This document shows, one piece after another, positions 3,194-20,270 of a stretch of 64,000 bases of DNA; the first letter of the stretch is position 1, and each line of letters opens with the position of its first letter. The stretch is from NCBI GenBank assembly GCA_918797485.1, contig CAKKNE010000002.1, forward strand, positions 3,348,001 to 3,412,000, read 5' to 3'. The notes under the pieces are model-generated. The model saw only the letters and a program-made list of their open reading frames with translations. It did not search any database and had not been told where the DNA came from. The stretch is from Pelagomonas calceolata (lineage: Eukaryota). Position numbers and translations under genes: made by a program.

Positions 3194-3617
3194 GATTCGT
3201 GGGCACCGGTTTCGACGCTTGCAAGGACGCCGGCGCCGGCTTTCCAGCCAGGAGGATTTGTAATTACGAGGGTGCTACGCGGTCTGCACGGCTCGCCGCG
3301 GCGGCGGCGCTGCGGCTGCGGGTCGGCTGGCGACGGAAGATATCGCACGATGCTGCTTGCTGCAGTATCTCGAGCAGAGGCCGTGAAAAACCCAAAGCTG
3401 ACCAAGCTTAGCGTCTGTAAGACACTAGATTTTCAAGCATAGTATGCTTGGACCAAAACGCCGTGGTTTTGGCACATACGGACCACCAAGGGTCCTCCCT
3501 GCATCGCCTCGCTGCCGGAGCATCGCTCCGATTCGCTGCGGCGCACCGCTACGAGCCGGAGAGCCTGCCGCCAAAAGCAGAGCTAGCGCGCGACGCGCGT
3601 AGACACCAGCGGGACCC

Positions 3618-6065
3618 ATGGGCAAGGCCCAGGAGAAGCGCGAGGCCGCCGAGAAGGCCGCGGCCAAGAAGGCCGAGAAGGACGCCAAGAAGGCGGCGCT
3701 GAAAGAGGCGCGCGCGGCGAAGAAGGCGTTAAAAGCGCAAGTCAAGGAGGCGGTGGAAGCGCAGAAGAAGCCGCTTCCTCCCAAACCGGAAGAATTGAAC
3801 GAAAATAATTGGAATGACGCATCCCAAAAAGCCCTAGACGACGCGTTACGTTCCCATGCCCCGCTGCCGAACCAGGTCGAGCGGTGGCGCTTGATCAGTC
3901 GAGACGTGCCGTCGTACTCGTCGCGGGCCTGCGCCCTACGCTTTTTGGAAGTGAGAAAAAATATAAAAAAACTCAAAGATTGGGAGGCCGAGTGCCGCGC
4001 CGTGACGCTCGCGAACGCCGCGCTGTCGAAGTTGGACGGGAGGGCGAAGAAGGACATCGAGGAGAAGGCGCGACGAGCCTACCAGGAAAAGGCCGGCGTC
4101 AAGACGGAAGAAGAAAAAGCGGCAGAGGAAGCGCGGCAGCTCGCGGAGGCCAAAATGGGTAGGGTGCTCAAGGCCGACGACGGTGCTGCGGCTGATTTAC
4201 TGGCCGCGCAAGGGGTAGTAGCGACCTTCGCCGCACCTCCAGCGAAAGCTCATAGGAACGTCAAAGACGTGAATGTCAGTAATCTCGGCGTCTCGTTCCA
4301 CGGCGCGCCTATATTGGATGGGACGACGTTCGTCATGAACTGGGGCAATAGATATGGCTTTGTTGGTCGCAATGGTTCGGGCAAGTCTACGGTTATGAGG
4401 TGTATCGGCGCTCGAGCGATTCCCATACCCGCGGCGATCGACATCTATCACTTGACGACCGAATACCCACCGACCGACGAAACGGCCCTGGAAGCGGTCA
4501 TGAAGGTCGACGACGAACGAAACGAGTGCGAGCGGGAAGTAGACGAACTCAACGACCTGATGGCTTCGGACGCATTGGACGAGGACGCGCACAACGACGC
4601 CGCGGACCGGTTGAACGTTTTATATGAAAGGTTGGAGGAGCTGGACGCCGCCACCGCGGAAGCTAGAGCAACTGATATCTTAACGGGATTAGGGTTCTCC
4701 GCGGACCGGCAAAAACAGAAAACCAAGGACTTTAGCGGTGGCTGGCGGATGAGGGTAGCTCTAGCGCGCGCTCTATTCATCCAGCCCGCTCTCTTGTTAT
4801 TGGATGAACCTACCAACCACCTGGACATGGAGGCCGTCGTCTGGCTCGAGGACTACCTGTCGAAGTGGCAGAAGATGCTGTTCATGGTCTGCCATTCCCA
4901 GGACTTCCTGAACAACGTGTGTACACATATCTGCCATCTGGACCAATTGCACAAACAGCTTGTGTACTACAAAGGCAACTACGATAGTTTTGTCGAAACG
5001 AAAAGGGACCTACAGACGGAACAGATGAAGCGCTGGGAGGCGGAACAGGCGGACTTAAAGCAGATGAAGGAGTACGTGGCCAAGTTCGGCCACGGGACCG
5101 CCAAATTAGCGAGACAGGGCAAGTCGAAGGAGAAATTGTTAGCGAAAAAGATGGCGTCGGGCTTGACGGAGAAGCCCGTCGAAGAATTATCGCTGAAGTT
5201 CCGGTTTCCCGACCCCGGGCACCTCAGCCCTCCCGTCCTCCAAGTGAACGAGTTGACCTTCGGATACGGAGACGGACCGAACTTGTACGAAAATGTCGAC
5301 TTCGGCTTGGATCTGGACTCGAGAATCGCGTTGGTCGGCCCGAATGGTGCTGGTAAATCGACATTAGTGAAAATCATCAATGGCGAACTTACGCCGCGAC
5401 GAGGCGCGGTGCGACCCCACGGCCACCTCAAGATGACGAAGTTCACGCAGCACTTCGAGGACGTGTTGGACTTCACGAAGACGCCCCTGCAGTGGTTCAT
5501 GGACCGGTACCCCGAAACTACAAGAGAGGACGCGCGGAAGTGGCTCGGGAGGTACGGCACGTCCGGCGTCGTGCAGCAGCAGACGATGTCGCAGCTCTCC
5601 GAAGGCCAGAAGGCCAAGGTCGTTTTTTGTCATATGGCCAAACAATCAGCACACATCCTGCTGCTGGACGAGCCGACGAATGCACTAGATATGGAAATGA
5701 TCGATTCGCTCGCGGACGCCATCAAGGCGTTCAAGGGCGGGGTCGTACTTGTAAGTCACGACATGCGATTAATTAGCCAAGTGACGGAGGAGATCTGGAT
5801 CGTCGATAAAGGTTTAAGGAAGTACGAGGGCGACATCGGGAATTTCAAGATGGACCTGCGGCGGCAGATGAAGCTCGAAAAAGAAGACAAGAAGAAGAAG
5901 AAGTCTCCCAAATTGGCCCCGAAGGCGCCTTCACCTCCTCCGTCTTTTAGGCTGGACCAGGCGCCGCCGCCCGCGCCGCCGCCGGCGCGGAACCTGGACG
6001 CGCTCCGCGGTACAGCGCCGGCCGCGTACGTGCCGCCCGGGCGGCGGGGCGACGGCGCGTGGTAG
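3618..6065 (+). CDS. ABC-F family ATPase (ABCF2-like) with N-terminal SANT/Myb domain
   Basis: Two ABC domains (GRNGSGKST/FSGGWRMR/LLLLDEPTNHLD and GPNGAGKST/LSEGQK/LLLDEPTN), no TM segments. N-terminal WNDASQKALDDAL...ERWRLISRDVP...ACALRF resembles SANT. Confidence 0.92.
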   Translation: MGKAQEKREAAEKAAAKKAEKDAKKAALKEARAAKKALKAQVKEAVEAQKKPLPPKPEELNENNWNDASQKALDDALRSHAPLPNQVERWRLISRDVPSYSSRACALRFLEVRKNIKKLKDWEAECRAVTLANAALSKLDGRAKKDIEEKARRAYQEKAGVKTEEEKAAEEARQLAEAKMGRVLKADDGAAADLLAAQGVVATFAAPPAKAHRNVKDVNVSNLGVSFHGAPILDGTTFVMNWGNRYGFVGRNGSGKSTVMRCIGARAIPIPAAIDIYHLTTEYPPTDETALEAVMKVDDERNECEREVDELNDLMASDALDEDAHNDAADRLNVLYERLEELDAATAEARATDILTGLGFSADRQKQKTKDFSGGWRMRVALARALFIQPALLLLDEPTNHLDMEAVVWLEDYLSKWQKMLFMVCHSQDFLNNVCTHICHLDQLHKQLVYYKGNYDSFVETKRDLQTEQMKRWEAEQADLKQMKEYVAKFGHGTAKLARQGKSKEKLLAKKMASGLTEKPVEELSLKFRFPDPGHLSPPVLQVNELTFGYGDGPNLYENVDFGLDLDSRIALVGPNGAGKSTLVKIINGELTPRRGAVRPHGHLKMTKFTQHFEDVLDFTKTPLQWFMDRYPETTREDARKWLGRYGTSGVVQQQTMSQLSEGQKAKVVFCHMAKQSAHILLLDEPTNALDMEMIDSLADAIKAFKGGVVLVSHDMRLISQVTEEIWIVDKGLRKYEGDIGNFKMDLRRQMKLEKEDKKKKKSPKLAPKAPSPPPSFRLDQAPPPAPPPARNLDALRGTAPAAYVPPGRRGDGAW

Positions 6066-6395
6066 CTCGCGAATTATTGTGGACGGAGTAATCTTGGCAT
6101 GCTCCCTTTCTTTTTGGACCGCGTCGTCCGATTTAGCTCTCTAATTTGGCGGCGTTGGCGGCGCATTTTGTGAGGATCATCCTGTCTTACATCGTGTGGC
6201 TTGTGAGCGTCGCGCGGCGGCGTGGAAATGATAGGTCAAGTATGGTACGGTAGTACCTTACCGCAGTAATGCGGTTGCCTATTTGTATTTCACGCACTCA
6301 TAATAGTGAGCCGCGGTAACGTCATAGCCAGAGGAGTCCTTCCCGCGGCGCGTGACGCGCCGGCTGCTGTGGCGCCCTCTGCCTAGCTAAATTTA

Positions 6396-7112
6396 ATGGC
6401 GGCGTTGATGCCGGACTGGACCACGCGCAAGGCGCAGGACGCCAGCGCTGAGACAGCGCCGGCCACCGTCGACGCGGACATCTTCGGCTGGGACAGCGAC
6501 GAGGAAGTCGACGCGGAGGTCGCCGCGCTCACGGCGAGCCCCGTCGCGTTCCGGGGCTACAAGAGCGCGAGCAAGGCGCGGCCGTCGGCGCCGCCGCCGA
6601 CGCGCTGCACGACGCCGCCCCGGACCGGCCGCCGCCGCTCGCCGCGGCCCCCGACCGATAAGGCGCCGCCGGCGGTCAAGCCGCGGGCGCTGCGGCCGGC
6701 GCCGAGCCGGGGCGCGCGGCGCGTGCTCGTCGCGTCGAGCCGGGCGAACGCGCCGCCGCCGCCGCCGCCGCCGCTCAAAAAGGACCTGCTCCGCAGCCTC
6801 GCGGCGGCCGCGGACGACGCGCCGACCCGGTCGATCGCGGACAAGCTCCATCCGCTCGCGGCGCCGCCGACGCCGCCGCGGGCGGAAGCCGACGAGGCCG
6901 CGGCCGGCCCGCCCTCGACGGTGTCGCGCTCGGACCGCGGGTCGGTCGCGTCGCCGGCCGCGCGGTTCGCCGCCGCCCGCGAGGAGCCGCCGCGCCGGCG
7001 CCGGCCGCGGCGCGTCGACCGGAGCGACCCCGTCGCGCTCTTCGCGCACCGCCAGGCCGACTGGGAGCGCCAGCGCCGCGCCGCGCGCCGCCGCCGACGT
7101 GCCGCGGCGTGA
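6396..7112 (+). CDS. Low-complexity hypothetical protein with possible HYLS1-like C-terminal box
   Basis: ATG-initiated ORF with coding-like codon usage. C-terminal RSDPVALFAHRQADWER recalls the DPV-x-Y/F...W motif of HYLS1_C. Confidence 0.5.
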   Translation: MAALMPDWTTRKAQDASAETAPATVDADIFGWDSDEEVDAEVAALTASPVAFRGYKSASKARPSAPPPTRCTTPPRTGRRRSPRPPTDKAPPAVKPRALRPAPSRGARRVLVASSRANAPPPPPPPLKKDLLRSLAAAADDAPTRSIADKLHPLAAPPTPPRAEADEAAAGPPSTVSRSDRGSVASPAARFAAAREEPPRRRRPRRVDRSDPVALFAHRQADWERQRRAARRRRRAAA

Positions 7113-7249
7113 GCCTTTCCCGGTGCTCCGTCTCCGCACCCTGGTCCGCGGAGACGGGCAAGTCGGTCGATTGTGATTAGAACAACGCTCGAACTTGAAG
7201 CGCGTGGGGAATGCCCGTAGCGAGTCACCAAGCGGAGTAATACGGGTCC

Positions 7250-8539
7250 TTAGAGGTCCTCGGGGTGGGCGACGAGGAGGTGCGGGGGGAAGTCGTCGCG
7301 GCACGTCGGGCACCGTGGCACGCGCTCGCCCCGGGAGGCGGACGCGTTGAGCAGCTCCAGCGCGCAGTCCCGGTGGAAGGCGTGCGGCACGGCGCGGTCC
7401 TCGTCCTCGAGCCACCGGCAGGGCATCTCGACGACGTCGCCGCCGAGCGCGTCCAGGCAGATCGGGCAGCACGCGGCCTCGTCCGGAGGCGCCGCCGCGA
7501 GGCGCCGCACGATCGACTCCGCGCGCCAGGGCACCGGCGGCACGCAGCCGTCCGCCGCGTCCTCGAGCGGCGGCATGGCGCCGTCGCTCTCGTCGTCCGA
7601 GTCGCTCTCCGCGTCGTCGCCGCGGCGGCGCCGCCGCGCGGCCTCGTCGCTCGACTCCGACGAGACGCTCTCCGAGCGGGCGCGCGGCATGGCGGCGATG
7701 GCCGCGTCGACGCGCTCGCGCCGCGCGCGGTCGTTCGCGGCGGCCGCCGCGTCGGCCCGCGCGGCCCAGGCCTCGTCGGCCCGCGCGGCCCAGGCCTCGT
7801 CGCCGCCTTCGGCGTCGTCGGCCCAGGCGTAGGCCAGCGTCTCCGCGGCCGAGTCGGGCGGCGAGGCCGCGCGCAGCGCGCGGACCGCCACCACGAAGCG
7901 CCGCCGCGTGAGCGCCGGCCAGTCGGCCAGCGCGAGGTGGTGCTCGAGCGCGTCCCACTCGCAGTACCTCAAATCGTCGAGGCACTCGGCCACGTCCAGG
8001 ACCGCGCGGCGCCGCGCCGGGCTGCCGACGTTCGCGCTCAGCCAGAGCCGCAGCTCGACCTCGCGCGGGCTCGCCCAGGGCCGGGACTCGCCCCAGTCCG
8101 GCGGCGCGCCCCAGGACCGCTCCTCCTCGGCCTGGACTCTTGCTTCCAATCGTTGCGCCCAGGCCGGCGGCGCGCCCTGGGCGCGCACCCAGGCCGGCGG
8201 CTCGCTCGCCGAGGGCGGCGCTTCTTCCTGGTGTACGGGTGCTTCGACGCGCCGCTCCTCCTGGCTCGCCCGCGCCTCGAGGCGCTGGCGTCGTTCTTCT
8301 TGCCGGGCCTCGAGGCGCCGCCACTGCTCGACGGCGTCGCGGTAGGCCGCACTCTGCGCGGCGGCCATGGCGGCGCGCTCCTCCTGGGCGGGCGGCGTAC
8401 GGGCGCGCTCCGCCTGGGGGCGGGCGAGGTACGGGCGGCCATTGCTCTGGGCGAGGTACGGGCGGCCATTGCTCTGCGCGCCTCCCCGGGCGCGCGCCTC
8501 CGGGGGGGCGCCCGGTCCGTCGGCGGACGGGCGCGGCAT
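7250..8539 (-). CDS. RING-H2 finger protein (putative E3 ligase) with SAM-like middle region
   Basis: CPIC...C...HAFHRDC...CPTCR RING-H2 pattern. ATG at 8539 (MPRPSADG). Confidence 0.8.
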   Translation of the reverse strand: MPRPSADGPGAPPEARARGGAQSNGRPYLAQSNGRPYLARPQAERARTPPAQEERAAMAAAQSAAYRDAVEQWRRLEARQEERRQRLEARASQEERRVEAPVHQEEAPPSASEPPAWVRAQGAPPAWAQRLEARVQAEEERSWGAPPDWGESRPWASPREVELRLWLSANVGSPARRRAVLDVAECLDDLRYCEWDALEHHLALADWPALTRRRFVVAVRALRAASPPDSAAETLAYAWADDAEGGDEAWAARADEAWAARADAAAAANDRARRERVDAAIAAMPRARSESVSSESSDEAARRRRRGDDAESDSDDESDGAMPPLEDAADGCVPPVPWRAESIVRRLAAAPPDEAACCPICLDALGGDVVEMPCRWLEDEDRAVPHAFHRDCALELLNASASRGERVPRCPTCRDDFPPHLLVAHPEDL

Positions 8540-8953
8540 CTCGGGGCTGCCTCCGCGGGCGCGCGGCGGCTCCTCCTTCCTTGTTTGTTTGTGTGAGGAG
8601 AGCTGCAAGCAAAACACGAGAGGAGCGAGGGGGCGGGCGGCGCACCGGTAGGCGTGCGCAAGACGGGTCGGGGAACCGGCTCCGAGCGTTCGTCGCGGTT
8701 TGGGTGGCCAACTCTAGAGACTCTACTCTAGAATAATGACTGGAACGCTTGCGAGAAGTGGGCAGCGTTTAACAGGTGCCGGCTCCCGTCTCGAGTCGAA
8801 GGTGCTGCGCTGCGAGAAGTCTGGGACCTCGCCGAGGACGCAGACGACGCGAAAGGGCAGCCGCAAAAGGGCAGCACAACGCAAGGGACGTCGACGACGC
8901 GTTAGGTGCCGGCTCTCAGCTGCCCGCGAGCCGGCCGCAGAGCTCCAACAAAG

Positions 8954-11440
8954 ATGGGCCCGCTCACGCCGCGCAACCCGCGCCTCCGCACGAAGTACCC
9001 GTACAACGACATGGTCTGGAAGAAGCTCGACCCGGACACGAAGGGCTTCGCGGAGATCAAGCAGGTCATAAAATATGCGGACGACGTCGAGATGTGCTGC
9101 CCGGGGTTAGTAGATAGGTTCCAAGAGGTCGCGAAGAACGGCAAGCTCACGAAGGACGCCTTCGATAATTATGGGAAGCCGACGGACCGCGCGAAGCATC
9201 GCGCCAAGCGGGCGAAGCGGCACGACCTCGGGGAGCTGCGGCAGCTCTTCGACACGATCGTGAAGGCCGGCGAGAAGGATATTAAATTGGCGGACCTCGT
9301 GCGGCACAAGCGCGAGGTGAACCGGATCTGTCCGGAGTTGATTACGGAGTTTAGTGACATCGACCAGGACAATAGTTGCAGCGTGAGCTGGGATGAATTA
9401 AGGGTCTTCGCCGGCGGCACGGACGACTGGCTCAAGTTCCAGTTGCAGAACATCATCGGGCTCGACGGGCTGAAGGACCAGATCCACCAGTTCCACCAGT
9501 CTATTAGTCTGGACAAGAAGAGGCAAGCTGCAGGCTTCGACGTGAAAGACGCGGGCGGCAAGTACCACATGATCTTCCAGGGGAACCCCGGGACGGGGAA
9601 AACGACCATGGGGCGCGTCGTGGCGGCGTTGCTCAAGCGCATAGGCATCACGCAGAGCGATCTGTTGGTGGAAGTGCAGCGGGATCAATTGGTAGCGGGA
9701 TACGTCGGCCAAACGGCCCCGAAGACGCAGGAGAAGATCGACGAGGCCTGTGCTGGGGTGCTTTTTGTGGATGAGGCGTACCGGCTGTCGCATGCTGTGT
9801 GGAAATCAAATTGTCGCGGCGCGTCTCCGCCACTGCTGAATCATGACCTTACGCCATCGACGCGACGCCACCTCAATGGCGTGGCGGTGTGGGTCTTACA
9901 CGACTCGATTCAGTCATCAGGACAGCGTCGTCGCCGAGAAATGACTTAGTGAAGAATTATGTGCACCCGACTCACTGGTTGATTTACCCACAGGTCGCAA
10001 GGTAGTAAATCGGGCAGCGACTACGGCAAGGAAGCTATTGAAACGCTCATGGGCGCGATGACCGAGCCGCCGGGCAAGGCGCCCGTCATGGTCTTCGCGG
10101 GCTATCCGAATGATATGGCTTCGTTCATGCAGGCGACTATGTGGAAATCAAATTTCGGGCGCCCCGCGCCATCGACGCAACGTGCTTTCCGTAGCTGCGT
10201 CTGCGCAATGGCGTGGCGATTCCGCGCCATCGACGCGACATTGTCCCCGTGGCCACGTCGGCTCGATGGCGTGGAGGCGCACAAAGGTCCACGCAATATT
10301 TCTCAGATAACCTAACTCACTGGTTGATTTCCACACAGGCAGGCGAATTCCGGGCTGTATCGACGCATCGCGTACACGTTCGACTTCGAGGACTACACGC
10401 CGTTAGATCTGGCGAAGATCCTGGGGAAGATGGCCCAGGGGAAGGGCTTCGGGCTGTCTGCCGACTTGACGTCAAACAATTTCGAGGTTTTGAGTAGGAT
10501 GATCGAGGAGGGCACGCTGCCCGAGGCGCGGGCCCTTATGAACGGCGGCATCTGCGAGCGCATCTTCACCTTCGCGAAACAATCATTGGATGGGCGGTGC
10601 CAGGCTTCCGGACAAGTAAGCGTGGAGATAACGGCGGAGGACATCACGATGGCAATGACACGCATCCCGCCGCCGCCGCGGCGCGACGACGGCGGCGACG
10701 ACGACGACGGCGGCGGCGGTGGTGGTGGCGGCGGCGGCGACGAGCGGCTGCGCCTCGAGCTGACGAACGTGAAGCAGCAGCTGATCCTCGTCAAACAGCA
10801 GCTGCGGACGGCGCGGGCCGACAGCAGCCGGTTGCGTGGCGAGCTGGACCGGACCAAGGCCCTCCTGGCCAGCCGTCCGGCCGCCCCGCCGCCCGCGGCC
10901 AGGGGCCCACAGGCTCCGCAGGCCCCGCAGGCCCCGCCCGCGAACCAGGCCCCTCCGGCGGGCGCGGGTCATGCCGCGGCGCGGGCGGGCGTGCCGGCCG
11001 GGGGCACGTGGCAAGTGCTCCTAGAGAGCGGCTGGGCGACGATCGACGCCGCCGGGCAGCACATCATGAACGGCGCCGTCGCGGCCGGGCAGACGAGCAT
11101 ACGGGACAAGATCGCCGGCCGCGAGTATTTTATCGACTTCGTCGCGAAGAAGCAGACGAACTGCCGGACCGGCAAGGCGCGGGACATCCGGTGCGCGCCC
11201 GCCGGCTCGGCGGTGCCGGCCTCCAAGCCGTCGGAAGCCGGCGGGATTTGGCAGGTGCTCTTGAACGACGGCTGGAAGGTCATGGACGCGCCGACGTCCG
11301 CCACGCTGAGCCAGGCGGCGAAGGCGGGGCAGACTACCGTCCAGCTCCGCCAGCGGGGCTACGACTACACCGTCGATCTCGCGGCCCTCACGCAGACGAA
11401 TCTGGCGACAAAAGCGGTACGGCAGATCAAGTTTGTCTAA
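8954..11440 (+). CDS. EF-hand + CbbX/SpoVK-like AAA+ ATPase + coiled coil + tandem WWE protein. Exons 8954-9786, 9994-10128, 10339-11440 (689 aa)
   Basis: EF-hand DQDNSCSVSWDE; HMIFQGNPGTGKTT Walker A; LVAGYVGQTAPKT; GVLFVDEAY Walker B. After removing two introners the frame reads DEAYRLSQGSKSGSDYGKEAIETL...VFAGY...FMQANSGLYRRIAYTFDFEDY. Two WWE-like repeats at the C-terminus. Confidence 0.88.
9795..9993 (+). mobile_element. Introner element 1 (non-autonomous TIR transposon forming intron 9787-9993, GT-AG)
   Basis: TIRs CTGTGTGGAAATCA (9795-9808) and TGATTTACCCACAG (9980-9993), 12/14 match. 8-bp TSD GTCGCATG / GTCGCAAG. Removal restores the AAA+ frame. Confidence 0.92.
10137..10338 (+). mobile_element. 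Introner element 2 (intron 10129-10338, GC-AG)
   Basis: TIRs CTATGTGGAAATCA (10137-10150) and TGATTTCCACACAG (10325-10338). Perfect 8-bp TSD GCAGGCGA at 10129-10136 and 10339-10346. Removal restores the frame. Confidence 0.93.
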
Positions 11441-11469
11441 GAATTGGAAAAAATAAAATAAGAACAACA

Positions 11470-12600
11470 TTACCGGAACGCGAAGCCGAACCCGGGCGAC
11501 GGCGGCGGCCGCCGCCGCGCCGTCTTCCACTCGCCCGCGGCCGCCCGGCGCGCGACGCGGTCGCCGCTGCCCGCGTTTGATGAAGACGGCGCCGACGGGG
11601 GCAGCCCCAGAATCCGCTCGAGCTCGCGCCGCCGGTCCTCGTCGAGGTCCAGCGCGTCGGGGAACTCGACCTGGACCCGCAGGAAGAGCCGCCCGCGCTT
11701 CCCCGGCGCGCCGCGCACGGGCATGCCCTCGCCCTCGACGCAGCGCAGCGCGCCGTGCTTCAATACATCGCCCTCCCGCGCCAGCTTCACGCGGAACGTC
11801 GACCCGTCGGGCCGCGCGACCTCGACCGACGGCCCCCCTCCTAATGCGTCGCCGAGGCTGATCCGCGCGTCCAGCAACAGATCGGCGCCCCGTCTTTTGT
11901 ACAAAGCGTGGGGCGCCTCGCGCAGCTCGAACTGGACGACGGCGTCGCCCGCCCTTGCTTTGACGACGTCGCCCTCGCCGACGCCCGGCGCGAGCTTGAC
12001 GCGGCACCTGACATTATTCTCGAGCGCCACGGACAGCGTCCGCCCCGTGAAGCAGTCGTCCAGCGACACGGTGATGGCGAAGCGCCGCGGCTGGGGCCGC
12101 CCGAAGCCGCCCATGCCGCCGAACGCGTCGCCGAAGGCGCTCCCGAAGCCCCCGAACATCTGCTCGAACATCTGCTGGGCCTGGGCGTTATTTCCACCTT
12201 GTGAAAATCCAGCGAAGGGGTTGCCCTGCGGCATGCCGCCCGGTGCACCGTCGACGCCGGCCTTGCCGAAGCGATCGTACTGCTTCCGCTTCGCCGGGTC
12301 GCTCAGCACCTCGCGCGCCTCGTTGAGCTTCTTGAACTCCTCGGGGTCGCCGCCCTTGTCCGGGTGGCACCGCAGCGACTTCCGCCGGTAGGCCTTGTCG
12401 ACGTCGCGCTGCGTGCACTTCGGGTCGAGACCGAGCGCGGCGTAGTAGCCGCCGTCGTCGCGCGCGCCGCCTCGTGGGATCTGCAGTGCTCGCCCTGGCC
12501 GCGTGGCGCCGCCTCGTGGGATCTGCAGTGGCCGCGTGGCCCTAGGCACGAGCGCCGCGACGCACGCGAGCAGCGCTGCGAGCCGCCGTAGCAGCAGCAT
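11470..12600 (-). CDS. Type II DnaJ/Hsp40 co-chaperone with signal peptide
   Basis: J-domain (YYAALG...HPDKGGD...AREVLSDPAKRKQYD), G/F-rich linker, C-terminal GEGMP...GRLF; hydrophobic N-terminal leader. Confidence 0.9.
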   Translation of the reverse strand: MLLLRRLAALLACVAALVPRATRPLQIPRGGATRPGRALQIPRGGARDDGGYYAALGLDPKCTQRDVDKAYRRKSLRCHPDKGGDPEEFKKLNEAREVLSDPAKRKQYDRFGKAGVDGAPGGMPQGNPFAGFSQGGNNAQAQQMFEQMFGGFGSAFGDAFGGMGGFGRPQPRRFAITVSLDDCFTGRTLSVALENNVRCRVKLAPGVGEGDVVKARAGDAVVQFELREAPHALYKRRGADLLLDARISLGDALGGGPSVEVARPDGSTFRVKLAREGDVLKHGALRCVEGEGMPVRGAPGKRGRLFLRVQVEFPDALDLDEDRRRELERILGLPPSAPSSSNAGSGDRVARRAAAGEWKTARRRPPPSPGFGFAFR

Positions 12601-12802
12601 GGTTGCTCAAGGACGGCGTGAAGCCGTCGCGACGTTTTGCAACGCGGTCTAGGGCGTGGTGTCGCACGCAGTCGCGTGTCAGTACCAGCTTTAGTTGTCC
12701 GTGCGGCCAAAGCTGCGCCGCGTGTCGTCCAATTTGCAATGGCATAATCACTAGCGACCGGTGAGACACTAGCAACGCAGCGAGTCCTAGCAAGCCCCTT
12801 AC

Positions 12803-13453
12803 TCACGCGTCGTTGACCGTGGCCTCGTCGTCGTCGGCCACGAGCAGTCGGAGGGGAGGCGGCAGCTCGACGTCCGCGTACGCGCGCGCCGCGGCGTAGA
12901 GCTTGAAGAGGCGGCAGGACGCGTGCACGCGCACCTGGACGCACGCGTAGTAGTCCGCGCCGAAGCAGCGCCGCGTCAGCTCCGCGAGCGGCACGGCGAC
13001 GTACTGCCAGCCCTCGCCGACGACGAGCGGCAGGTCGCACGTGCAGCCGTCGACCTTGACGATGGAGCGGCGGTTCGAGAGGTTGAAGGTGTAGTACTTC
13101 TCGTTCCGATCGATCACGTTCAGGCGCAGCGCGAAGAACTTTGTGGAGACCTTGACGTATAATACAATATAGGGCTGGACGCAGCTCCGGCTCCGGAAAT
13201 TTAGGGAGGCGCCGGGCCCGCTCAGTTCGACGCAGGCCTGGTCCTGGAGCTGCTCGTCCTCTATGATCACACACGCGCCCGTCGGCGCGCCGGCGCGCCG
13301 TCTTTGCTCAAGATCGTCCTGGGCCGCGATGACCTCGGCGCAGTTGTCGATGTCCTCGTAGACGCCGCGCGGGAAGAGCGGCGTCACGTCGACGGGCGCC
13401 GGGTCGGCCGGCGTCCGCGCGGGGCTGCCCTGGGGGCTCTGGGTGGCCAGCAT
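12803..13453 (-). CDS. CFAP20/BUG22-like (DUF667) cilia-associated protein
   Basis: FNLSNRRS...DLPLVVGEGWQYVAVPLAELTRRCFGADY...VQVRVHASCRLFKLY...YADVELPPPLRL matches the CFAP20 family pattern. Confidence 0.8.
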   Translation of the reverse strand: MLATQSPQGSPARTPADPAPVDVTPLFPRGVYEDIDNCAEVIAAQDDLEQRRRAGAPTGACVIIEDEQLQDQACVELSGPGASLNFRSRSCVQPYIVLYVKVSTKFFALRLNVIDRNEKYYTFNLSNRRSIVKVDGCTCDLPLVVGEGWQYVAVPLAELTRRCFGADYYACVQVRVHASCRLFKLYAAARAYADVELPPPLRLLVADDDEATVNDA

Positions 13454-13980
13454 CTGCGTTAGGGCTGCCCCGCGGGAGTTCTTGCCCGCTAACGGGCGGG
13501 AGAGGCGGAGGTCCTACGTTAACCCACAACGCTTGGGACGCTGTCGATGCCAAAAAACGCCGTCAATAGCGTGGCGCTAAGCGGCGTTGCCACGCGTTGG
13601 TCCAAGCTAGCGGCCGTAAGGCACTAGGAATCTCAGCTGAGCCGCAAAGGTGTAAGTAGCGCAAGCGTAACTGCACGCATCGCTCGCAAGCAAACGACGC
13701 TGTCGCCGCAGCGCTTGCCGGACCGTGTGGCTGAAACACTGCCTGCACCACTGCATCCTGTGCCTCGCCGTGTCCGCAGTAGTAGTCGCGCACGCGCCGT
13801 CCGGGGATTAGAAACTAGCAACTGTGTCAGGATTCGGAGCCAAGTCGGACCTAAGAGACCCGGCGCCGGCCGTGGCGAGAATTTGCTTCCGCCGTTTCTG
13901 AGGACGAGAGCCGGCGCAGCGCCGCACGAAACGCCCGCAGCAAGCGGTGCGTCACCTCTCGAAACGCGCAGGTCCGACGC

Positions 13981-14571
13981 ATGGCGGCCGCCGCGGCGCG
14001 GCTCCGCAAGGGCGCGCTCCTCGACGCCGCGCGGCGCGCGCTCCGCGAGCCCTCGCTCGTCGCCGTCGGCGCGCTGCTCAAGGCCGACGTGCCGGCCGTG
14101 CGCGCGGCGCGCGACGCCTACCGCGCGCGCGGCATCCGGGTGAAGAAGCTGCCGAACCGGCTGTGTCGGCTGGCCGTCGCGGACACGGACCGCGCCTTCC
14201 TCGCCGGGCTGTTCGCCGGCGATCTGGTCGTGCTCCACCCCACCGAGGCGTCGTCGGACGCGGGCGCCCAGGCGCGGGACCTGCTCGCGGCGACGAAGGA
14301 CGCCGGCAACGTCAAGCTCCTGGGCGGCGCGCTCGACGGCGCGGCGCTCTACGCGGCGGACTTCGAGCGGCTCCGCGACGCGCCGTCCCTGCACGAGCTG
14401 CGCGCTTCCGTCGCGCGGGCCGTCCGCGAGCCGGCGGCGCGGGCGGCGCGCGCGCTCCGGCAACCCTCCGTCTCGACGGGGCGTCTGGCCAAGGCGCAGG
14501 CGGCGAAGGTCGGGCGCGGCGTGCGGGCGCGTTTTGACGGGCTCGGCGGGGACGACGGGAGTGGTGGCTAA
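13981..14571 (+). CDS. Organellar ribosomal protein uL10-like
   Basis: VKKLPNRL...LFAGD...VKLLGGALDGAALYAADFERLRDAPSLHELRASV is typical of bacterial-type L10. Start uncertain. Confidence 0.7.
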   Translation: MAAAAARLRKGALLDAARRALREPSLVAVGALLKADVPAVRAARDAYRARGIRVKKLPNRLCRLAVADTDRAFLAGLFAGDLVVLHPTEASSDAGAQARDLLAATKDAGNVKLLGGALDGAALYAADFERLRDAPSLHELRASVARAVREPAARAARALRQPSVSTGRLAKAQAAKVGRGVRARFDGLGGDDGSGG

Positions 14572-14599
14572 TAGAGAACACATTTAACGAAGGGGATAG

Positions 14600-16077
14600 C
14601 TAGAGCGCGTCCGCCGTGAACGCGTTGATCATGCGCAGCGCGGCCGCGGGCTGGTCCATCGGCACCATGTGGCCCGCGTCGAGGACGCGCAGGAAGCTGA
14701 GCGGGCCGCTCGTGCGCAGCTCGCCGGCCTTCTTGGCCCCGGCGGGCCAGTCGGCGACGGCCGCGGCGCGGAACGCACCCTGGCCGGGCCACGGCAGGGC
14801 CAGGGTCCAGGCCTGGTTGCCGAGCCAGTTGCATATGTAGTCCTGGTCGCCCGCGTAGATCAGAATGCGCACGCCCGCGCCCAGTAGTTCCGGCAGGAGC
14901 TGCTGGTAGTTCTTGATGTAGTCGCCGGACAGCTCGAAGCGGATCGTCACGCTCTTCGAGCAGTCGGCCCAGCGGCCCTTCACGCCCAGGGCCGCGCGCA
15001 CGTCGTCGCGCTGCAGGTACTTCTTCACGTTGGAGAAGTCGTAGCAGAGCGGCGGCACCGCGCACTTGGCGCGCATGTCGTAGGGATTCATGCCCGTGAG
15101 CGTGTAGGGGATCTCGAGCGACATCTCGCAGAGCTCCAGCGCCGGTAAGCACGTGGCGGTCGTGTTCTGGCACGCGCGGATGCCGGCGATGCACGCAGGC
15201 GTCGCGGCGGCCATCACGGCGTGCTCCGCCTTGCCGACGGCGGCCTTGTGGCCGTTCGTGCTTATGATCATGTCCTTGTAGTACGCGAACCTGTGTGGAA
15301 ATCAAAATTTTACGGCGCGTTCGTGCTGAATCATCGCGTCGTCCTCCACGCCATCGACGCGACGCCTGCTCGATGGTTCCTCACCGCTCGACCGAGCCAG
15401 GACGGCCGCGTCATCGCCGAGAAATGACTTAGTGAAGAATTGTCGGGTGCACCCGACGCACTGGTTGATTTCCACACAGACGAGAACTGTATCTCAGGGT
15501 CCGTCAAGCCGTTGCCGATGGCCAGGCCCTTCAGGTTCTTTCGGAGCGTGCCGTTGCGGAAGAGACCCGAGGAAACCGCCGGCACGTAGTGGCCCGCGTA
15601 GGACTCGCCCGTGACGTAGAGGTCGTGATTGCTGAACTTGCCGTGAATCCGGAACCACTGGACGAGAAAATCGACCATGTCCCGGGCGACGCCGGCCTCG
15701 GTCGAGTCCTTGGCGCCGTAGGAGAAGCCCGTGCCGGCGGGCTGGTCCACGTAGATGAGCGTCGCGTTGCGATTCCACGAGTAGGGGTTCAGCTTCGTGG
15801 CCGTGCCGTCCGCGTTGACTTTGCACGGGCCGTTCTCTCCGAAAAGAGCCACCGCCGACGAGCAGCCCGGCCCGCCCGTCATCCACAGGATCACGGGGTC
15901 CGTGGCCGGGTCGTTGCGGGACTCGAAGGCCCAGTAAAAAAGATGTTTCGCGCCCGTCGACAGATCAATATAGCCGCTGGACTGCTTGACGCCGGGGTCG
16001 CAGAGGCCGGCGGCCTGCGGCTTGTTGAACGCGGCCGCGCCGTGCGCCAGGCAGAGGAGTGCGGCGAGGCTGCGCAT
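14600..16077 (-). CDS. Serine carboxypeptidase (peptidase S10). Exons 16077-15488 and 15290-14600 (426 aa)
   Basis: Signal peptide; WMTGGPGCSS, ENGP, DQPAGTGFSY, GESYAGHY (catalytic Ser), GDQDYICN, AGHMVPMDQP. Joined across an introner as DPEIQFAYYKDM. Confidence 0.93.
15291..15479 (+). mobile_element. Introner element 3, antisense to its host gene (intron 15487-15291 on the minus strand, GT-AG)
   Basis: Perfect 14-bp TIRs CTGTGTGGAAATCA (15291-15304) and TGATTTCCACACAG (15466-15479). TSD ACGCGAAC / ACGAGAAC. Shares GCCGAGAAATGACTTAGTGAAGAATT and CACTGGTTGATTT with element 1. Confidence 0.93.
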
Positions 16078-16393
16078 TGCTTTTATGCTTGCGGTAAACT
16101 TGCTCTGCGTCTTATACATTACAGCTTTTGCTGCCTCGTTTCACGTCTCTCTTGCTTGCTAGTGTCTTACAAACCGCTAGCTATTAAAGTCCCAACGTCT
16201 GCGGTGGACGCCGTGAGGCGCTGCTGCGCTGCTACGCGCGTTTCTACGCGCTTGCGCAGCGCCGCAGCAACCGCTGAGCACAGCTATACCAGCCTGCGCG
16301 GCCGCCGCGCGCCGCTTCGCCATAGAGCTTGAGCAAATTTATAAGCTTACTTCATCCCGCCTGGCGAGTTTAGCGCCGAGCCACCACCAAAGC

Positions 16394-16882
16394 ATGCCGA
16401 CTCAAGGCCCGTCGCCGCCGCAAGGACAGGCGACCGGGTGGTGGCCCATGCCTTTCAGTTTTGAGACGTTCGCCTGGGCCGTCTCTGCGCTTTTTCAACT
16501 CCTGACCGTCTGCGCATACCTCCTTTCGTTCCCCGACGTCGACGGCGTCGACGACCAGCTTCCGGACATGCCGGAAGTCATCCAGGACAGCGCCATCGAG
16601 ATGAAAATCACGTACAGTGGTATCATCTTCGTCTTCGGCTTCTACACGCAGGTCGTCGTCGTAAAGCAGCGTTGGAATTGGTGGAGAAAGAAGATGGAGG
16701 AGCACAAGTTCTCGAGCTGCGGATCATCATTTAATGACCACAAACCACCACACCCTTATTTCAACCGGCACCACACCCTTATTTCAACCGACCTGGACGT
16801 GCCACCGCGCAACTGGGACAAGGCATCCCCTAAGATGGCGAAGAATTTCGGCAGACCACTTCGTTCACGTGCGGCGCAATGA
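16394..16882 (+). CDS. Hypothetical protein with two hydrophobic segments
   Basis: ATG ORF ~215 bp downstream of an intergenic motif copy. No family recognised; 3' part contains a 23-bp tandem duplication. Confidence 0.35.
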   Translation: MPTQGPSPPQGQATGWWPMPFSFETFAWAVSALFQLLTVCAYLLSFPDVDGVDDQLPDMPEVIQDSAIEMKITYSGIIFVFGFYTQVVVVKQRWNWWRKKMEEHKFSSCGSSFNDHKPPHPYFNRHHTLISTDLDVPPRNWDKASPKMAKNFGRPLRSRAAQ

Positions 16883-17134
16883 CGCCATCTACGACTGGCA
16901 ATCGCTCGCGGGCGGGCTCGACATAACAGGCATCATCGACGAGTCGTTTGCTACCTTAGATGACGATACGGCTGCTTTGTGTCGCGCCGGTCGCTTCGGT
17001 GCTGCTGGCGAGACGACGTTCGTGCTAGAGAACAGTACAGTGCTGCAGTTCACAGCCCCTGATCCATGCCTCAAGGCCTTATTTGCTGCTAGCGAAAGGC
17101 GAAGGCGTGGTGGCGTCGACGCGTCGAGGCGTCG

Positions 17135-17536
17135 ATGGCGTACGCGTCGACGCCATCGACGGCGTCGTGCTGCGGGCGCGAGGGCGGCTTCGGGAGGCTC
17201 GTGATCGACCCCTGGCCGGGCCTCGGCGAGGAGCCGCACGGGAGCCCCCTGATGGCCATCAACGACTGTCGCGCGAACCCGTTCCTCAATTTGACAAGGA
17301 AATATGAGTTGGAGAACTGCGCCTTCGTCAACGCGTACGTGCGGGGCTTCGCGCACGTCTTCGTCGTCGCCACGCGCGACATCGTCGCCGGCCAGGAGCT
17401 CCTGATCGACTACAAGGAGAGCTACTGGAAAGAGCGGGCCGTCATGGAGCGCTACATGGGGCCGTTCCGCGCGGCGCACCAGCCCGTGGAGCTCGACCGG
17501 CTCCGCGCCGCGCTCGTGCAGCGGCGCGGCGAGTAA
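17135..17536 (+). pseudogene. SET-domain C-terminal fragment (5' part missing or disrupted)
   Basis: AINDCR...ENCAF...VFVVATRDIVAGQELLIDY...YW is a SET-domain C-terminal motif. No in-frame N-terminal half seen. Confidence 0.5.
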
Positions 17537-17659
17537 CCCACAGGTGTTAGGGGCGAGGGCAGGGCAAGGGGGTTCCCCGCCTCGGACGGCTGCGAGGCTC
17601 CGCGCCGCGCTCGTCCAGCGCCGGGGTAACTCACAGTAGCTTAGGCGGGAGGGGTCACC

Positions 17660-18679
17660 CTAGGCGGACGGCTGCGACGCCTTGGGCGTGACCTCGTGGT
17701 TCAGGACCGTGTGCACGTAGAGCTCGTCCTTCGGGTGGTCCTTCTCGCCCTCCTCGAAGCAGTACGACGAGGCGATGGCCAGCTTCGAGCCGTCGGTGTT
17801 GAAGGCCAGCGCCGCGACCGACGTCGGGAAGGGCTGGAGCTGCGCGAGGCGCTTCTTGTGCGCGCCGTCCCAGAGGCTGACGCCGCCGTCGCTCCCGCCC
17901 GTCGCGAACGTCCCCAAGAGCGGGTGGAAGGCGATGGCGTTGACCGGGTAGACGACCTTGCCCGCGCGATGGCACTTGAACGCGTACTTGCGCGCTTGGT
18001 CGCCGTCGGCGAAGTACTCGACGCTCACCCTGCCCTCGATGCTCGAGAGGGCGTAGCCCGTGGCGTCGGGGAAGCACTTGAGGCAGCGCGTCTGGTGCTT
18101 CAGGGAGGACTCGCGGTGCTGGAGCGGCGTGCTCAAGTTGCGCGCGTCGAAGAGGACGACGTGCCTGTCACTCGTACCGACGACGAGCTTCGTGTCCGCC
18201 GCGCCGAAGGCCAGGTCCAGCGCGAAGACCTTTCCCGGCACCTCGGCCGTCGCGACCCGACCATTCGACGCGCGCGGGTCCCAGCCCCCCACGGTCCGGT
18301 CCCACGACCCGCTGAAGACGACGTTGTGCTGCGCGTCGTACTTCAGGCAGCGGACGCCGGCGTCGTGGGCGCCCAGCGCCGCGGCCTGGCCCCCCTGGAG
18401 CGCGCCGTCGACGCGCGCGACGCGCACGCTGCCGTCGACGCAGCCGACGACGGCCGTCGCGTCGTCGCCGGCGAACGTCGCCGCGAGGCAGGCCGTCGGC
18501 TGCGTCGCCGCGGCGACGAGCGGCCGGTCCCGGTTCAAATCGTAGCGCCGGACCGTCGCGTCCCAGGACGCCGCGAGGAGCACGTCCGGGCTTGTCGGGC
18601 TGAACTCGACGCTCGAGATGCCGTCCTCGGGCGGGTCCGCGAGGTTGAGTAAGGGCTGCGGGGCTACGAGATTGGCCAT
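17660..18679 (-). CDS. BUB3: Mitotic checkpoint protein BUB3 (WD40)
   Basis: RESSLKHQTRCL, SSIEGRVSVEY, KYAFKCHR, YPVNAIAFHP, GTFATGGSDG, KKRLAQ. Confidence 0.93.
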   Translation of the reverse strand: MANLVAPQPLLNLADPPEDGISSVEFSPTSPDVLLAASWDATVRRYDLNRDRPLVAAATQPTACLAATFAGDDATAVVGCVDGSVRVARVDGALQGGQAAALGAHDAGVRCLKYDAQHNVVFSGSWDRTVGGWDPRASNGRVATAEVPGKVFALDLAFGAADTKLVVGTSDRHVVLFDARNLSTPLQHRESSLKHQTRCLKCFPDATGYALSSIEGRVSVEYFADGDQARKYAFKCHRAGKVVYPVNAIAFHPLLGTFATGGSDGGVSLWDGAHKKRLAQLQPFPTSVAALAFNTDGSKLAIASSYCFEEGEKDHPKDELYVHTVLNHEVTPKASQPSA

Positions 18680-18856
18680 GCCGATTTGTTTCTTTTTTGT
18701 GGTGACCGGCGACGGCGGCGCGCGGTCCTCGGCAGCGCCCAGCGCTTTGAGCGCCCGCTAGCGTGCGGCGGCTGGCCCTGCGAGCTGCAGATTCACGCGA
18801 GGAGAGCAGCGCTGCCAGTGGCGCAACCTGCTTGTCTCGAGATGCTTGCTTGTGCT

Positions 18857-18880
18857 TGCTAGTGTCTTACAGGCCGCTAG
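18857..18880 (+). promoter_or_regulatory. Recurrent intergenic motif TGCTAGTGTCTTACAGGCCGCTAG (consensus copy)
   Basis: Identical copy at 36202-36225. Near copies at 2539, 3408(-), 12751(-), 13607(-), 16157, 24664(-), 26144, 47295, 49366(-), 53276, 63271. Regulatory function is inferred. Confidence 0.7.
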
Positions 18881-19037
18881 CCACGCGAAGCCTAAACGCG
18901 CGGGGAGATTAACTAGCGTATCGAGTAACACACTAGCACTATTCACTCAGCCGCAAAACGCACGTAAAACCTCCGAAACCAATGATTTGGAGCCAAGCGG
19001 GCGTTAAGAAGCTAAGTGAGTTCATCGAAATGCTCAG

Positions 19038-19823: not shown

Positions 19824-20270
19824 TGGTGGTCGTAATGCTCTCCTTGGGTTCAAGCTCTTCTCTTTATTGGTTTCTTTAGCTGATGAGTGTGTTCAGGGCC
19901 TTGACCGGCGTCGAGGGGCCGCGGCGCCGCGCGGCTGCAACCGGTAAAAGGTATCGTAAGTACCTTATTGTACCTTATACCTACACGGTAGCCCGGCGCT
20001 TGCAGCCAGCTGCGACGAAACCCGGGCGGAAGCCTCGCACCGGCTCGCGGAAGTCCACTAGCGCGTATATATATGCGTTTGGCAAATTGCGGGTTTGCGC
20101 ATTGCACCACGATTTTTGCGAGCATAGAGTTCACAAAGCGCAGCCCTCGGCAGCCCGGTCTGCCCCGTTTTACCTTTCGTCACTTCTCCAAGCGCCAGCG
20201 CGTGCGCAGCCGCGAGAACCAGCGCAAGCTGCGGCAGCAGAGGCAAAAAGCCAAAGTCTAGCACAGACAC

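What the first reader, a model, noticed from the sequence alone, without database searches (positions are those of the whole stretch)
9787..15487. All clear introns in the window are self-splicing-site-creating DNA transposons (introners)
Seen: three 189-202-bp elements (9795-9993, 10137-10338, 15291-15479) share 14-bp TIRs CTGTGTGGAAATCA/TGATTTCCACACAG, are flanked by 8-bp direct repeats and interrupt conserved protein domains. Removing the element plus one TSD copy restores the frames exactly. The TIR end gives the AG acceptor and the first bases of the TSD give the GT/GC donor, so the insertion is invisible in the mRNA. Established: introner elements with TIRs and 8-bp TSDs are described from the pelagophyte Aureococcus anophagefferens, so the mechanism class is known. 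Inference: this is a recently active family and the main source of introns in this otherwise intron-free stretch; the 8-bp TSD suggests mobilisation by a hAT-like transposase encoded elsewhere.
Basis: partly seen in the sequence, partly recalled or inferred. Interest (0 to 1): 0.85.

Follow-up and report, generated by a model that had tools for sequence, protein, structure and literature searches.

The report
Known transposon-made introns, confirmed by RNA
Three ~200-base mobile DNA elements sit inside two algal genes and are cut out of the RNA exactly as introns; this kind of intron-making transposon is already published for this group of algae (very likely this species), so it is a clean example rather than a discovery.

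Summary
Elements at 9795-9993, 10137-10338 and 15291-15479 carry the 14-15-bp inverted ends and 8-bp flanking repeats (7/8, 8/8, 7/8). They interrupt an AAA+ CbbX-like ATPase gene (+) and a serine carboxypeptidase S10 gene (-).

Stranded poly(A) RNA reads, plus contigs from three other studies, show exactly the predicted junctions: 9786/9994 (GT..AG), 10128/10339 (GC..AG) and 15488/15290 (GT..AG on the minus strand). Each intron is one repeat copy plus the element. The flanking repeat supplies the donor and the inverted end supplies the AG. E1 and E3 lie in opposite orientations relative to their genes.

A capped metagenome scan returned 121 loci, and 67 of them held 71 further TIR-bounded copies. 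Of these, 46 had 7-8/8 flanking repeats, and all 46 offered a GY donor on at least one strand. In 21 of 21 testable copies, removing the element plus 8 bp put the coding periodicity back in register.

These features match the Aureococcus introners in print: about 200 bp, TIRs, 8-bp TSD, 5' site co-opted, either orientation. The hAT link, recent activity and "all introns in the window" remain unproven. No transposase-bearing copy was found, and no whole genome was available.

The parts
9787..9993 (+). Intron 1 of the CbbX-like ATPase gene: TSD copy 1 (9787-9794, GTCGCATG, supplies the GT donor) plus element E1 (9795-9993, 199 bp, ends ...CCCACAG and supplies the AG). 207 nt, phase 2.
   Evidence: Joint 9786>9994, GT..AG, in 34 and 31 stranded reads plus 2 contigs. 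Sequence.
9994..10001 (+). TSD copy 2 of E1 (GTCGCAAG), kept in the exon.
   Evidence: matches the upstream copy at 7 of 8 positions.
10129..10338 (+). Intron 2 of the same gene: TSD copy 1 (10129-10136, GCAGGCGA, GC donor) plus element E2 (10137-10338, 202 bp). 210 nt, phase 2. Because the TSD reads GCAG..., shifting the cut by 4 nt (10133-10342) is also GC..AG and gives the same mRNA.
   Evidence: Joint 10128>10339, GC..AG, in 36 and 29 reads plus 2 contigs, with 'both' = 8. Sequence.
10339..10346 (+). TSD copy 2 of E2 (GCAGGCGA), exonic.
   Evidence: 8 of 8.
15291..15487 (-). Intron of the serine carboxypeptidase gene, on the minus strand: TSD copy (15480-15487, GTTCTCGT on the minus strand, GT donor) plus element E3 (15291-15479, 189 bp). 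197 nt, phase 2. E3 lies in the same + strand orientation as E1, so it is opposite relative to its host gene.
   Evidence: Joint 15286>15484 'cut +4' = 15290/15488, in 21 and 16 reads on the opposite mate strand to gene 1, plus 2 contigs. Also seen in contigs X1 and X5. Orientation.
15283..15290 (-). Second TSD copy of E3 (GTTCGCGT on the minus strand), exonic.
   Evidence: 7 of 8.
8954..11440 (+). Host gene 1: an AAA+ CbbX-like ATPase with two C-terminal WWE domains. Exons 8954-9786, 9994-10128 and 10339-11440.
   Evidence: RNA contigs span the gene.
14600..16077 (-). Host gene 2: a serine carboxypeptidase (Peptidase_S10) with a signal-peptide-like N-terminus. Exons 16077 (or 16119)-15488 and 15290-14600.

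Best explanation
The three segments are non-autonomous DNA transposons (introner elements) that the cell removes from the mRNA as ordinary GT/GC-AG introns. Their insertion is inferred to have created these introns, rather than the elements having landed in older ones.

Each intron is exactly one copy of the 8-bp target-site duplication plus the element. The first two bases of the duplicated target (GT or GC) act as the 5' splice site. The last bases of the terminal inverted repeat (...CACAG) act as the 3' splice site. The second TSD copy stays in the exon, so the mRNA is restored letter for letter.

Because both ends carry the same repeat, the element ends in ...TTGATTTCCACACAG on either strand. 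It therefore works as an intron in both orientations.

Shown: the anatomy, exact splicing in RNA, use in both orientations, and many further copies elsewhere with the same rule.

Inferred: that insertion created the introns, that the elements are mobilised in trans by a transposase making 8-bp staggered cuts, and that the window comes from Aureococcus anophagefferens or a very close relative.
For: Anatomy. TIRs occur 6 times against 0.11 expected. The 8-bp TSDs match at 7/8, 8/8 and 7/8.

RNA. In two stranded poly(A) runs the junction reads are 34/31 at 9786>9994 (GT..AG), 36/29 at 10128>10339 (GC..AG) and 21/16 at 15290/15488. The mate strand flips between the + gene and the - gene. One contig each from a metatranscriptome (X6) and an older culture run (X9) shows all three junctions. 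X1 and X5 contigs also carry the E3 junction. The pieces of X1 record 1 leave 549 nt, which equals 135+414, the spliced exons 2 and 3.

Frames and homology are restored.

Orientation. E1 and E3 align in the same + strand sense at 72% identity, yet serve genes on opposite strands.

Generality.
- 71 TIR pairs in 67 of 121 metagenome loci. The TSD is 8/8 in 32 and 7/8 in 14 of the 71. In the control, 2 of 1972 shuffled pairings reach >=7/8, and no repeat length other than 8 works.
- All 46 of 46 good-TSD copies have a GY donor on at least one strand, against 33.7% of background 8-mers.
- In the 21 of 46 copies with clear GC3 periodicity on both flanks, removing the element plus 8 bp puts the flanks in register in 21 of 21. 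Shifting the cut by +1 or +2 gives 0 of 21, and keeping the element gives 2 of 21.
- Among 21 E3-like copies, element orientation against donor strand is 9 same, 9 opposite and 3 with donors on both strands.

Negative control. 0 of 53 viral-contig hits to the same 15-mer have a partner end.

Literature.
[quoted passage not shown] The dinoflagellate classes with 8-nt TSDs that work in either orientation are called similar to that pattern.
- Passage of PMC9481584: about 210 bp is the characteristic introner length.
- PMC9860276 supplementary Table 6: family 4 of GCA_000186865.1 has TSDs and TIRs, averages 200 bp at 55.9% GC, and 942 of its 1744 copies are in genes. The window elements are 54-58% GC.
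Against: No whole genome was available, so the copy number in this genome was not measured directly. Multi-copy status rests on metagenome copies and on hundreds of RNA reads that match the elements but run on into other flanks (table 7).

The founding paper (Huff et al. 2016) is not held. Neither TIR 14-mer occurs in any held paper, and the two shorter TIR strings tried were absent from the Gozashti spreadsheet. Identity with the published family is therefore judged from features, not sequence.

RNA cannot place the cut within the repeated TSD ('both' = 6, 8 and 4). E2 has a second canonical reading 4 nt along.

Some reads cover the intron interiors (for example depth 12-19 at 9875). Splicing is therefore not shown to be complete, and cross-mapping from other copies prevents a percentage.

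Two of the three window TSDs and 25 of the 71 metagenome pairs are imperfect (<=6/8 in those 25).
Confidence: 0.93

Rival explanations
1. The universal GY at the start of the TSD is not only a survivor effect, in which only spliceable insertions persist in genes. It would reflect an intrinsic, roughly palindromic target preference (G-T/C-N4-A/G-C) of the mobilising transposase, of the hAT type (nTnnnnAn). On this view the enzyme itself hands the element a 5' splice site on either strand.
For: The TSD is 8 bp. In the 46 good TSDs, position 1 is G in 27, position 2 is T in 20, position 7 is A in 26 and position 8 is C in 35. Donors on both strands occur in 12 of 46, against 11.3% expected if one donor were simply required (p = 0.004).
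Against: The T2/A7 bias is exactly what selection for GT donors on one strand or the other would also give. Nearly all sampled copies lie in coding sequence, so there is no neutral set to compare against.

The element ends in CTGTG. That does not fit the hAT terminal motif YARNG, though this motif is recalled and not from a call.

No transposase domain was found in 37 ORFs from 9 loci with an unpaired end. The 2025 dataset lists the superfamily as Unknown for the Aureococcus TIR families.
Confidence: 0.35
2. The elements are ordinary MITEs that happened to insert into pre-existing spliceosomal introns. The introns would then be older than the elements.
For: MITEs often sit in introns. No element-free orthologue was examined here.
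Against: In all three cases the intron is exactly TSD plus element, with no other intronic base. The same exactness holds in 21 of 21 testable metagenome copies. The donor lies inside the duplicated target, which only exists after insertion.
Confidence: 0.02
3. The window is from a pelagophyte other than the published Aureococcus anophagefferens strain, and the family is a related but undescribed introner family. That would make it a new member rather than the known one.
For: The published consensus could not be compared. Related copies are spread over many marine metagenome contigs at only 82-92% identity. TARA 'Aureococcus sp.' MAGs carry similar families of 200-201 bp with TSDs and TIRs.
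Against: Window GC is about 0.57-0.82 per 2 kb, mostly 0.65-0.75, against 67.4% listed for A. anophagefferens. Element length and GC fit family 4 of that genome. Culture RNA runs under one organism label, from five studies, hold 59-89% of the sampled words of the stretch.
Confidence: 0.1

Closest known systems
Introner elements of Aureococcus anophagefferens. Sources: Huff, Zilberman & Roy 2016, not readable here. Described in passages of 10.1101/2020.10.14.339549 and PMC9481584. Family 4 in PMC9860276 supplementary Table 6.
   Same: About 200 bp, with TIRs and TSDs. 8 bp is the TSD length measured here. The held passage likens 8-nt-TSD dinoflagellate classes to the A. anophagefferens pattern, and Table 6 records only that TSDs are present. 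The 3' splice site is carried by the element and the 5' site co-opted from the TSD. The elements work in either orientation, leave the mRNA unchanged, are mostly GT with a minority of GC donors, are about 56% GC, and are multi-copy.
   Different: Nothing found that differs. Sequence identity to the published consensus could not be checked. One of three window copies uses a GC donor, against 2.8% in the published family, which means little at n = 3.
Introner-like element classes 6, 8 and 10 of the dinoflagellate Polarella glacialis (10.1101/2020.10.14.339549, passages read)
   Same: [quoted passage not shown]
   Different: A different lineage with different element sequences. GA donors are also used in dinoflagellates. 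No homology is implied.
hAT-superfamily MITEs
   Same: 8-bp TSD, short TIRs, non-coding, small. The TSD composition leans towards T at position 2 and A at position 7.
   Different: The terminal bases CTGTG do not fit the usual hAT end (recalled motif). No hAT transposase partner was found, and the TSD bias is confounded by the splice-donor requirement.
Micromonas pusilla introner elements (as described in PMC9860276)
   Same: A transposon insertion makes a precisely spliced intron in a compact algal genome.
   Different: Different families and rules. [quoted passage not shown]

Membership tests
Aureococcus-type introner element (TIR + TSD family) | Terminal inverted repeats | tested here: met
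   All six ends are found, against 0.11 expected. Mismatches per end: 0, 2, 1, 0, 0, 0.
Aureococcus-type introner element (TIR + TSD family) | 8-bp target-site duplication | tested here: met
   7/8, 8/8 and 7/8 in the window. Among 71 metagenome pairs, 46 are >=7/8, against 2 of 1972 in the control, and only length 8 gives matches.
Aureococcus-type introner element (TIR + TSD family) | Length about 200 bp (intron about 210 nt) | tested here: met
   Elements of 199, 202 and 189 bp; introns of 207, 210 and 197 nt. The metagenome mode is 203 bp, in 17 of 71.
Aureococcus-type introner element (TIR + TSD family) | Removed exactly from the mRNA, leaving the coding sequence as before insertion | tested here: met
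   Junction reads and contigs. Frames and homology restored.
Aureococcus-type introner element (TIR + TSD family) | One splice site carried by the element (3' AG), the other co-opted from the TSD (5' GY) | tested here: met
   Skipped segments begin at TSD base 1 (GT, GC, GT) and end at the last element base (AG). For E2 a 4-nt shifted reading is equally canonical.
Aureococcus-type introner element (TIR + TSD family) | Makes introns in either orientation | tested here: met
   E1 and E3 have the same strand sense but their host genes are on opposite strands. Metagenome copies split 9 same to 9 opposite.
Aureococcus-type introner element (TIR + TSD family) | Many copies in the same genome | not testable with these tools
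   No genome is held. Proxies: 71 copies in metagenome loci, and 597-1971 RNA reads per run at four places that run from E3 into other flanks (table 7).
Aureococcus-type introner element (TIR + TSD family) | Sequence similarity to the published family consensus | not testable with these tools
   Huff 2016 is not held. Neither TIR 14-mer is in any held paper, and the two shorter TIR strings tried were not in the Gozashti spreadsheet.
Aureococcus-type introner element (TIR + TSD family) | Insertion bias towards nucleosome linker DNA | not testable with these tools
   This needs nucleosome maps. It is reported in PMC9860276 (passage read).
hAT superfamily (non-autonomous member) | 8-bp TSD | tested here: met
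hAT superfamily (non-autonomous member) | Target consensus nTnnnnAn (recalled) | tested here: inconclusive
   T at position 2 in 20 of 46 and A at position 7 in 26 of 46. The same bias is expected from selection for GT donors.
hAT superfamily (non-autonomous member) | Element ends of the form YARNG (recalled) | tested here: not met
   The ends read CTGTG. The motif itself comes from memory, not from a call.
hAT superfamily (non-autonomous member) | A long copy with the same ends encoding a hAT transposase | tested here: inconclusive
   0 transposase hits in 37 ORFs of 9 unpaired-end loci. The contigs behind the loci could not be searched, and there is no genome.
U2-type spliceosomal intron | GT/GC...AG boundaries and removal from poly(A) RNA on the gene's strand | tested here: met
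   ends GT..AG, GC..AG and CT..AC (= GT..AG on the minus strand), with strand-consistent mates.

The most novel reading that the evidence does not exclude
The transposase that moves this family makes 8-bp staggered cuts at a near-palindromic G-T-N4-A-C target, a hAT-like rule. The enzyme's own target choice would therefore hand every insertion a 5' splice site on whichever strand is transcribed, while the inverted repeat has become a two-way 3' splice-site cassette. A 2025 dataset still lists the superfamily of the Aureococcus TIR introners as Unknown, so naming the enzyme would be new.
Probability: 0.3. Interest if true: 0.5.

Novelty: already known. Interest (0 to 1): 0.25.

Why it matters
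Introners are the clearest known way for a genome to gain introns in bulk. This window gives three textbook cases with direct RNA proof: a GC donor, use in both orientations, and two insertions 135 bp apart in one gene. That is useful as validation and as a teaching example, but the mechanism and the family type are in print.

What remains open is which transposase moves the 8-bp-TSD family, and whether its target preference supplies the splice donor. That needs the whole genome.

Tried and rejected
- Whole genome: none is held. The contigs behind the metagenome loci could not be searched for hAT domains.
- Huff et al. 2016 could not be read by DOI or PMC id. Neither TIR 14-mer is in any held paper.
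- Earlier scan notes: none for this genome or sequence.
- Empty-site or strain polymorphism test: runs X19 and X20 gave only 245-639-nt pieces that do not bridge any of the three sites. No verdict.
- Autonomous partner: 54 ends in loci without a partner end. About half are low-GC chance hits of the 15-mer, and most of the rest are copies cut by contig ends. 37 ORFs from 9 candidate loci gave no transposase family.
- Viral contigs as carriers: 53 hits, 0 with a partner end and none resembling the element beyond 20 nt.
- A generic TIR+TSD scan of the window was swamped by GC-rich noise. The stricter version recovered only E2 among non-GC-rich hits.
- Weak internal-motif hits at 1180-1206, 46196-46218 and 62083-62114 have no ends and look like chance or GC-rich motifs.

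Other possible introns were examined and dropped:
- The 199-bp gap at 12607-12805 is intergenic, with an ATG at 12600 and a stop at 12803-12805.
- The partial CFA20 domain has a continuous ORF from an ATG at 13453.
- The frame changes at 16.8-17.2 kb belong to a 3' gene fragment, not a split gene.

Also without result: exon 3 of gene 1 alone has no PDB match, and one Pfam call failed on stop codons.
Full report
WHAT IS THERE

The window is GC-rich, mostly 0.65-0.75 per 2 kb. The 14-mer CTGTGTGGAAATCA occurs six times with <=2 mismatches, as three inverted pairs at 9795/9993, 10137/10338 and 15291/15479. Shuffles expect 0.11. Allowing 3 mismatches adds only two unpaired hits, against 1.27 expected.

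The elements are 199, 202 and 189 bp. Their flanking 8-mers are GTCGCATG/GTCGCAAG, GCAGGCGA/GCAGGCGA and ACGCGAAC/ACGAGAAC.

E1 and E3 are 72% identical end to end in the same + strand sense. E2 shares only about 25 bp at each end and an internal GCCATCGACG-type motif, and it contains an internal 53-bp duplication. The elements are 54-58% GC, below their surroundings.

HOST GENES

Removing one TSD copy plus the element gives one open frame in each gene. Leaving the elements in gives in-frame stops (E1, E2; 207 and 210 nt) or a frameshift (E3; 197 nt).

Gene 1 (+, 8954-11440) is an AAA+ ATPase of the CbbX type with WWE domains.
- Pfam AAA positions 1-67 of 131 end at the last residues of exon 1.
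- Exon 1 aligns to CbbX (3zuh) up to residue 133.
- The 44-residue exon 2 aligns to residues 142-177, which leaves a one-residue loop difference across E1.
- The first residues of exon 3 continue CbbX 179-183. I matched this by eye against the 174-183 stretch printed; exon 3 alone gave no PDB hit.

Gene 2 (-, 16077-14600) is a serine carboxypeptidase. Peptidase_S10 positions 7-184 and 210-419 of 420 lie on the two exons. Carboxypeptidase Y residues 181 and 186 align to the third-from-last residue of exon 1 and the second residue of exon 2, so the junction has no gap. All three introns are phase 2.

RNA

One search found 24 runs. Two stranded poly(A) raw-read runs, a metatranscriptome and an older culture run were laid on 1-20000.

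| Joint | Ends | Reads (X21 / X22) | First mate on |
|---|---|---|---|
| 9786>9994 | GT..AG | 34 / 31 | - |
| 10128>10339 | GC..AG | 36 / 29 | - |
| 15286>15484, cut +4 = 15290/15488 | GT..AG on the minus strand | 21 / 16 | + |

Each joint is also carried by one contig in X6 and one in X9. The mate strand flips with the gene strand, as expected for real transcripts. Contigs from two more studies (X1, X5) carry the E3 junction. The X1 contig pieces leave exactly the 549 nt of spliced exons 2 and 3.

Limits on the RNA evidence:
- The TSD makes the cut position ambiguous by 6, 8 and 4 nt. Only E2 has a second canonical reading, 4 nt along.
- Reads also cover the intron interiors, so complete splicing is not shown.
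- Cross-mapping from other copies is heavy. 597-1971 reads per run run from E3 into other flanks at four places (table 7), and many chimeric E3/E1 joints appear. That itself indicates a transcribed multi-copy family.

ELSEWHERE

No genome is held for this window.
- 67 loci hold 71 inverted pairs 61-349 bp apart, with a mode of 203 bp in 17 of them.
- The flanking 8-mers match 8/8 in 32 pairs, 7/8 in 14 and <=6/8 in 25. Mismatched pairings reach >=7/8 in 2 of 1972. No repeat length from 4 to 12 other than 8 gives matches, apart from 1 at length 5.
- Each window copy has relatives. E3 falls in a 25-member cluster of 203-bp elements at 90-92% identity, which makes E3 a copy with a 14-bp deletion. 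E1 clusters with two copies at 82-84%, and so does E2.
- All 46 copies with good TSDs offer GT or GC at the start of the TSD on at least one strand, against 33.7% of 24,732 background 8-mers. 12 offer it on both strands, against 11.3% expected (p = 0.004).
- In the 21 of 46 copies whose flanks both show clear GC3 periodicity, deleting the element plus 8 bp puts the flanks in register in 21 of 21. Moving the cut by +1 or +2 gives 0 of 21. Moving it by -1 or -2 gives 3 and 0 of 29. Keeping the element gives 2 of 21.
- Element orientation against donor strand is 9 same, 9 opposite and 3 both.
- As a control, the same 15-mer hits 53 viral contigs, none with a partner end.

HOW IT WORKS

In the pre-mRNA the two inverted ends pair into a closing stem. 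That leaves the 8-nt TSD with its GY donor just outside the stem and the AG at the stem's 3' end. MFE z-scores are -1.1, -4.4 and -2.7.

The end sequence reads ...TTGATTTCCACACAG on both strands: a pyrimidine-rich run followed by AG. That would explain why either orientation splices.

That insertion created the introns, rather than landing in older ones, is inferred. The grounds are that intron and TSD-plus-element coincide exactly in 3 of 3 window copies and 21 of 21 metagenome copies.

COMPARISON WITH PRINT

I could not read Huff et al. 2016. What I did read:
- Passages of preprint 10.1101/2020.10.14.339549 state that in A. anophagefferens one splice site is carried by the element and the other recruited from the TSD. 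They add that classes with 8-nt GHN6 TSDs working in either orientation resemble the A. anophagefferens pattern.
- A passage of PMC9481584 gives about 210 bp as the characteristic introner length there.
- In the supplementary spreadsheet of PMC9860276 (rows read), GCA_000186865.1 has 3099 introner copies in all. Its family 4 has TSDs and TIRs, averages 200 bp at 55.9% GC, uses GT 95.9% and GC 2.8%, and has 942 of 1744 copies in genes.
- The spreadsheet sd07 of PMC12130899 (rows read) lists the large A. anophagefferens families as 'TIR DNA' with superfamily Unknown, plus some doubtful LTR calls and one Academ call in one strain.

The phenomenon and the family type are therefore known, while the transposase is not.

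'hAT-like'. The 8-bp TSD and the leaning towards T2/A7 fit. The bias is confounded with donor selection, the CTGTG ends do not fit the hAT end motif as I recall it, and no transposase-bearing copy turned up.

'Recently active'. This is not shown. Copies are 72-92% alike and two window TSDs have one change. The runs that might have shown empty sites were too fragmentary.

'All clear introns'. GC3-supported ORFs are long and unbroken, with whole Pfam domains, across the window. No other canonical joint is among those listed over 1-28000. However, 153 and 172 joints were not shown, and 28001-64000 had no RNA laid.

Three apparent breaks were examined and explained otherwise.

VERDICT

This is a correct and well-read observation of a published mechanism. 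It is now backed by direct RNA evidence and a wider sample of copies. Interest is low to moderate.

Noticed in passing
window 22889-23351: A 463-bp element with 61-nt inverted arms (85% complementary) around a lower-GC interior. It lies between genes. RNA contigs show several variant versions, so it is probably another repeated MITE-like family unrelated to the introners.
   Followed up: partly
window 17174-17533 (+): Only the last 120 residues of a SET-domain protein are encoded here. They are 99% identical to residues 997-1116 of an 1116-aa metagenome protein (P0002), and the other 996 residues are nowhere in the window. The break abuts a GC-rich palindrome (17100-17165) whose GCCATCGACG motif also occurs inside the introners. 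Possible readings are a gene fragment, a rearrangement or an assembly join.
   Followed up: partly
window 7634-7877: One contig of run X9 skips 242 nt here, with non-canonical CG..AG ends and 7 nt of microhomology. The site is inside a very GC-rich, low-complexity ORF. Raw-read cover was too thin to test it. It may be an allele, a collapsed repeat or an odd splice.
   Followed up: partly
window 2541-2554 and 3415-3428; 2795-2829: A perfect 14-bp inverted repeat (CTAGTGTCTTACAG / CTGTAAGACACTAG) brackets the Arf GTPase gene. Separately, 828-1694 RNA reads per run match only a 35-nt piece of that gene and run on into other sequence on both sides, which suggests a highly expressed paralogue elsewhere.
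   Followed up: no
window 9988, 16711, 16798, 7177: Fixed differences between the assembly and the RNA of the cultured sample. For example, 9988 C>G in 92 of 95 and 86 of 86 reads lies inside E1's right inverted end, and 16711 C>T appears in 203 of 203 reads. These look like strain differences rather than editing, but no DNA run of that strain was laid.
   Followed up: no
loci L002, L021, L080, L103, L120 and others (metagenome): Short derivatives of 61-141 bp carry the same inverted ends and 8-bp TSDs, including a 5-member cluster of 88-102 bp. The family therefore also exists as mini-elements that would make very short introns.
   Followed up: partly
window 9787-10338: Two independent insertions from different subfamilies lie only 135 bp apart in one gene, leaving a 45-codon exon. 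Both introns are multiples of 3 (207 and 210 nt) but carry in-frame stops, so retention would truncate the protein.
   Followed up: yes
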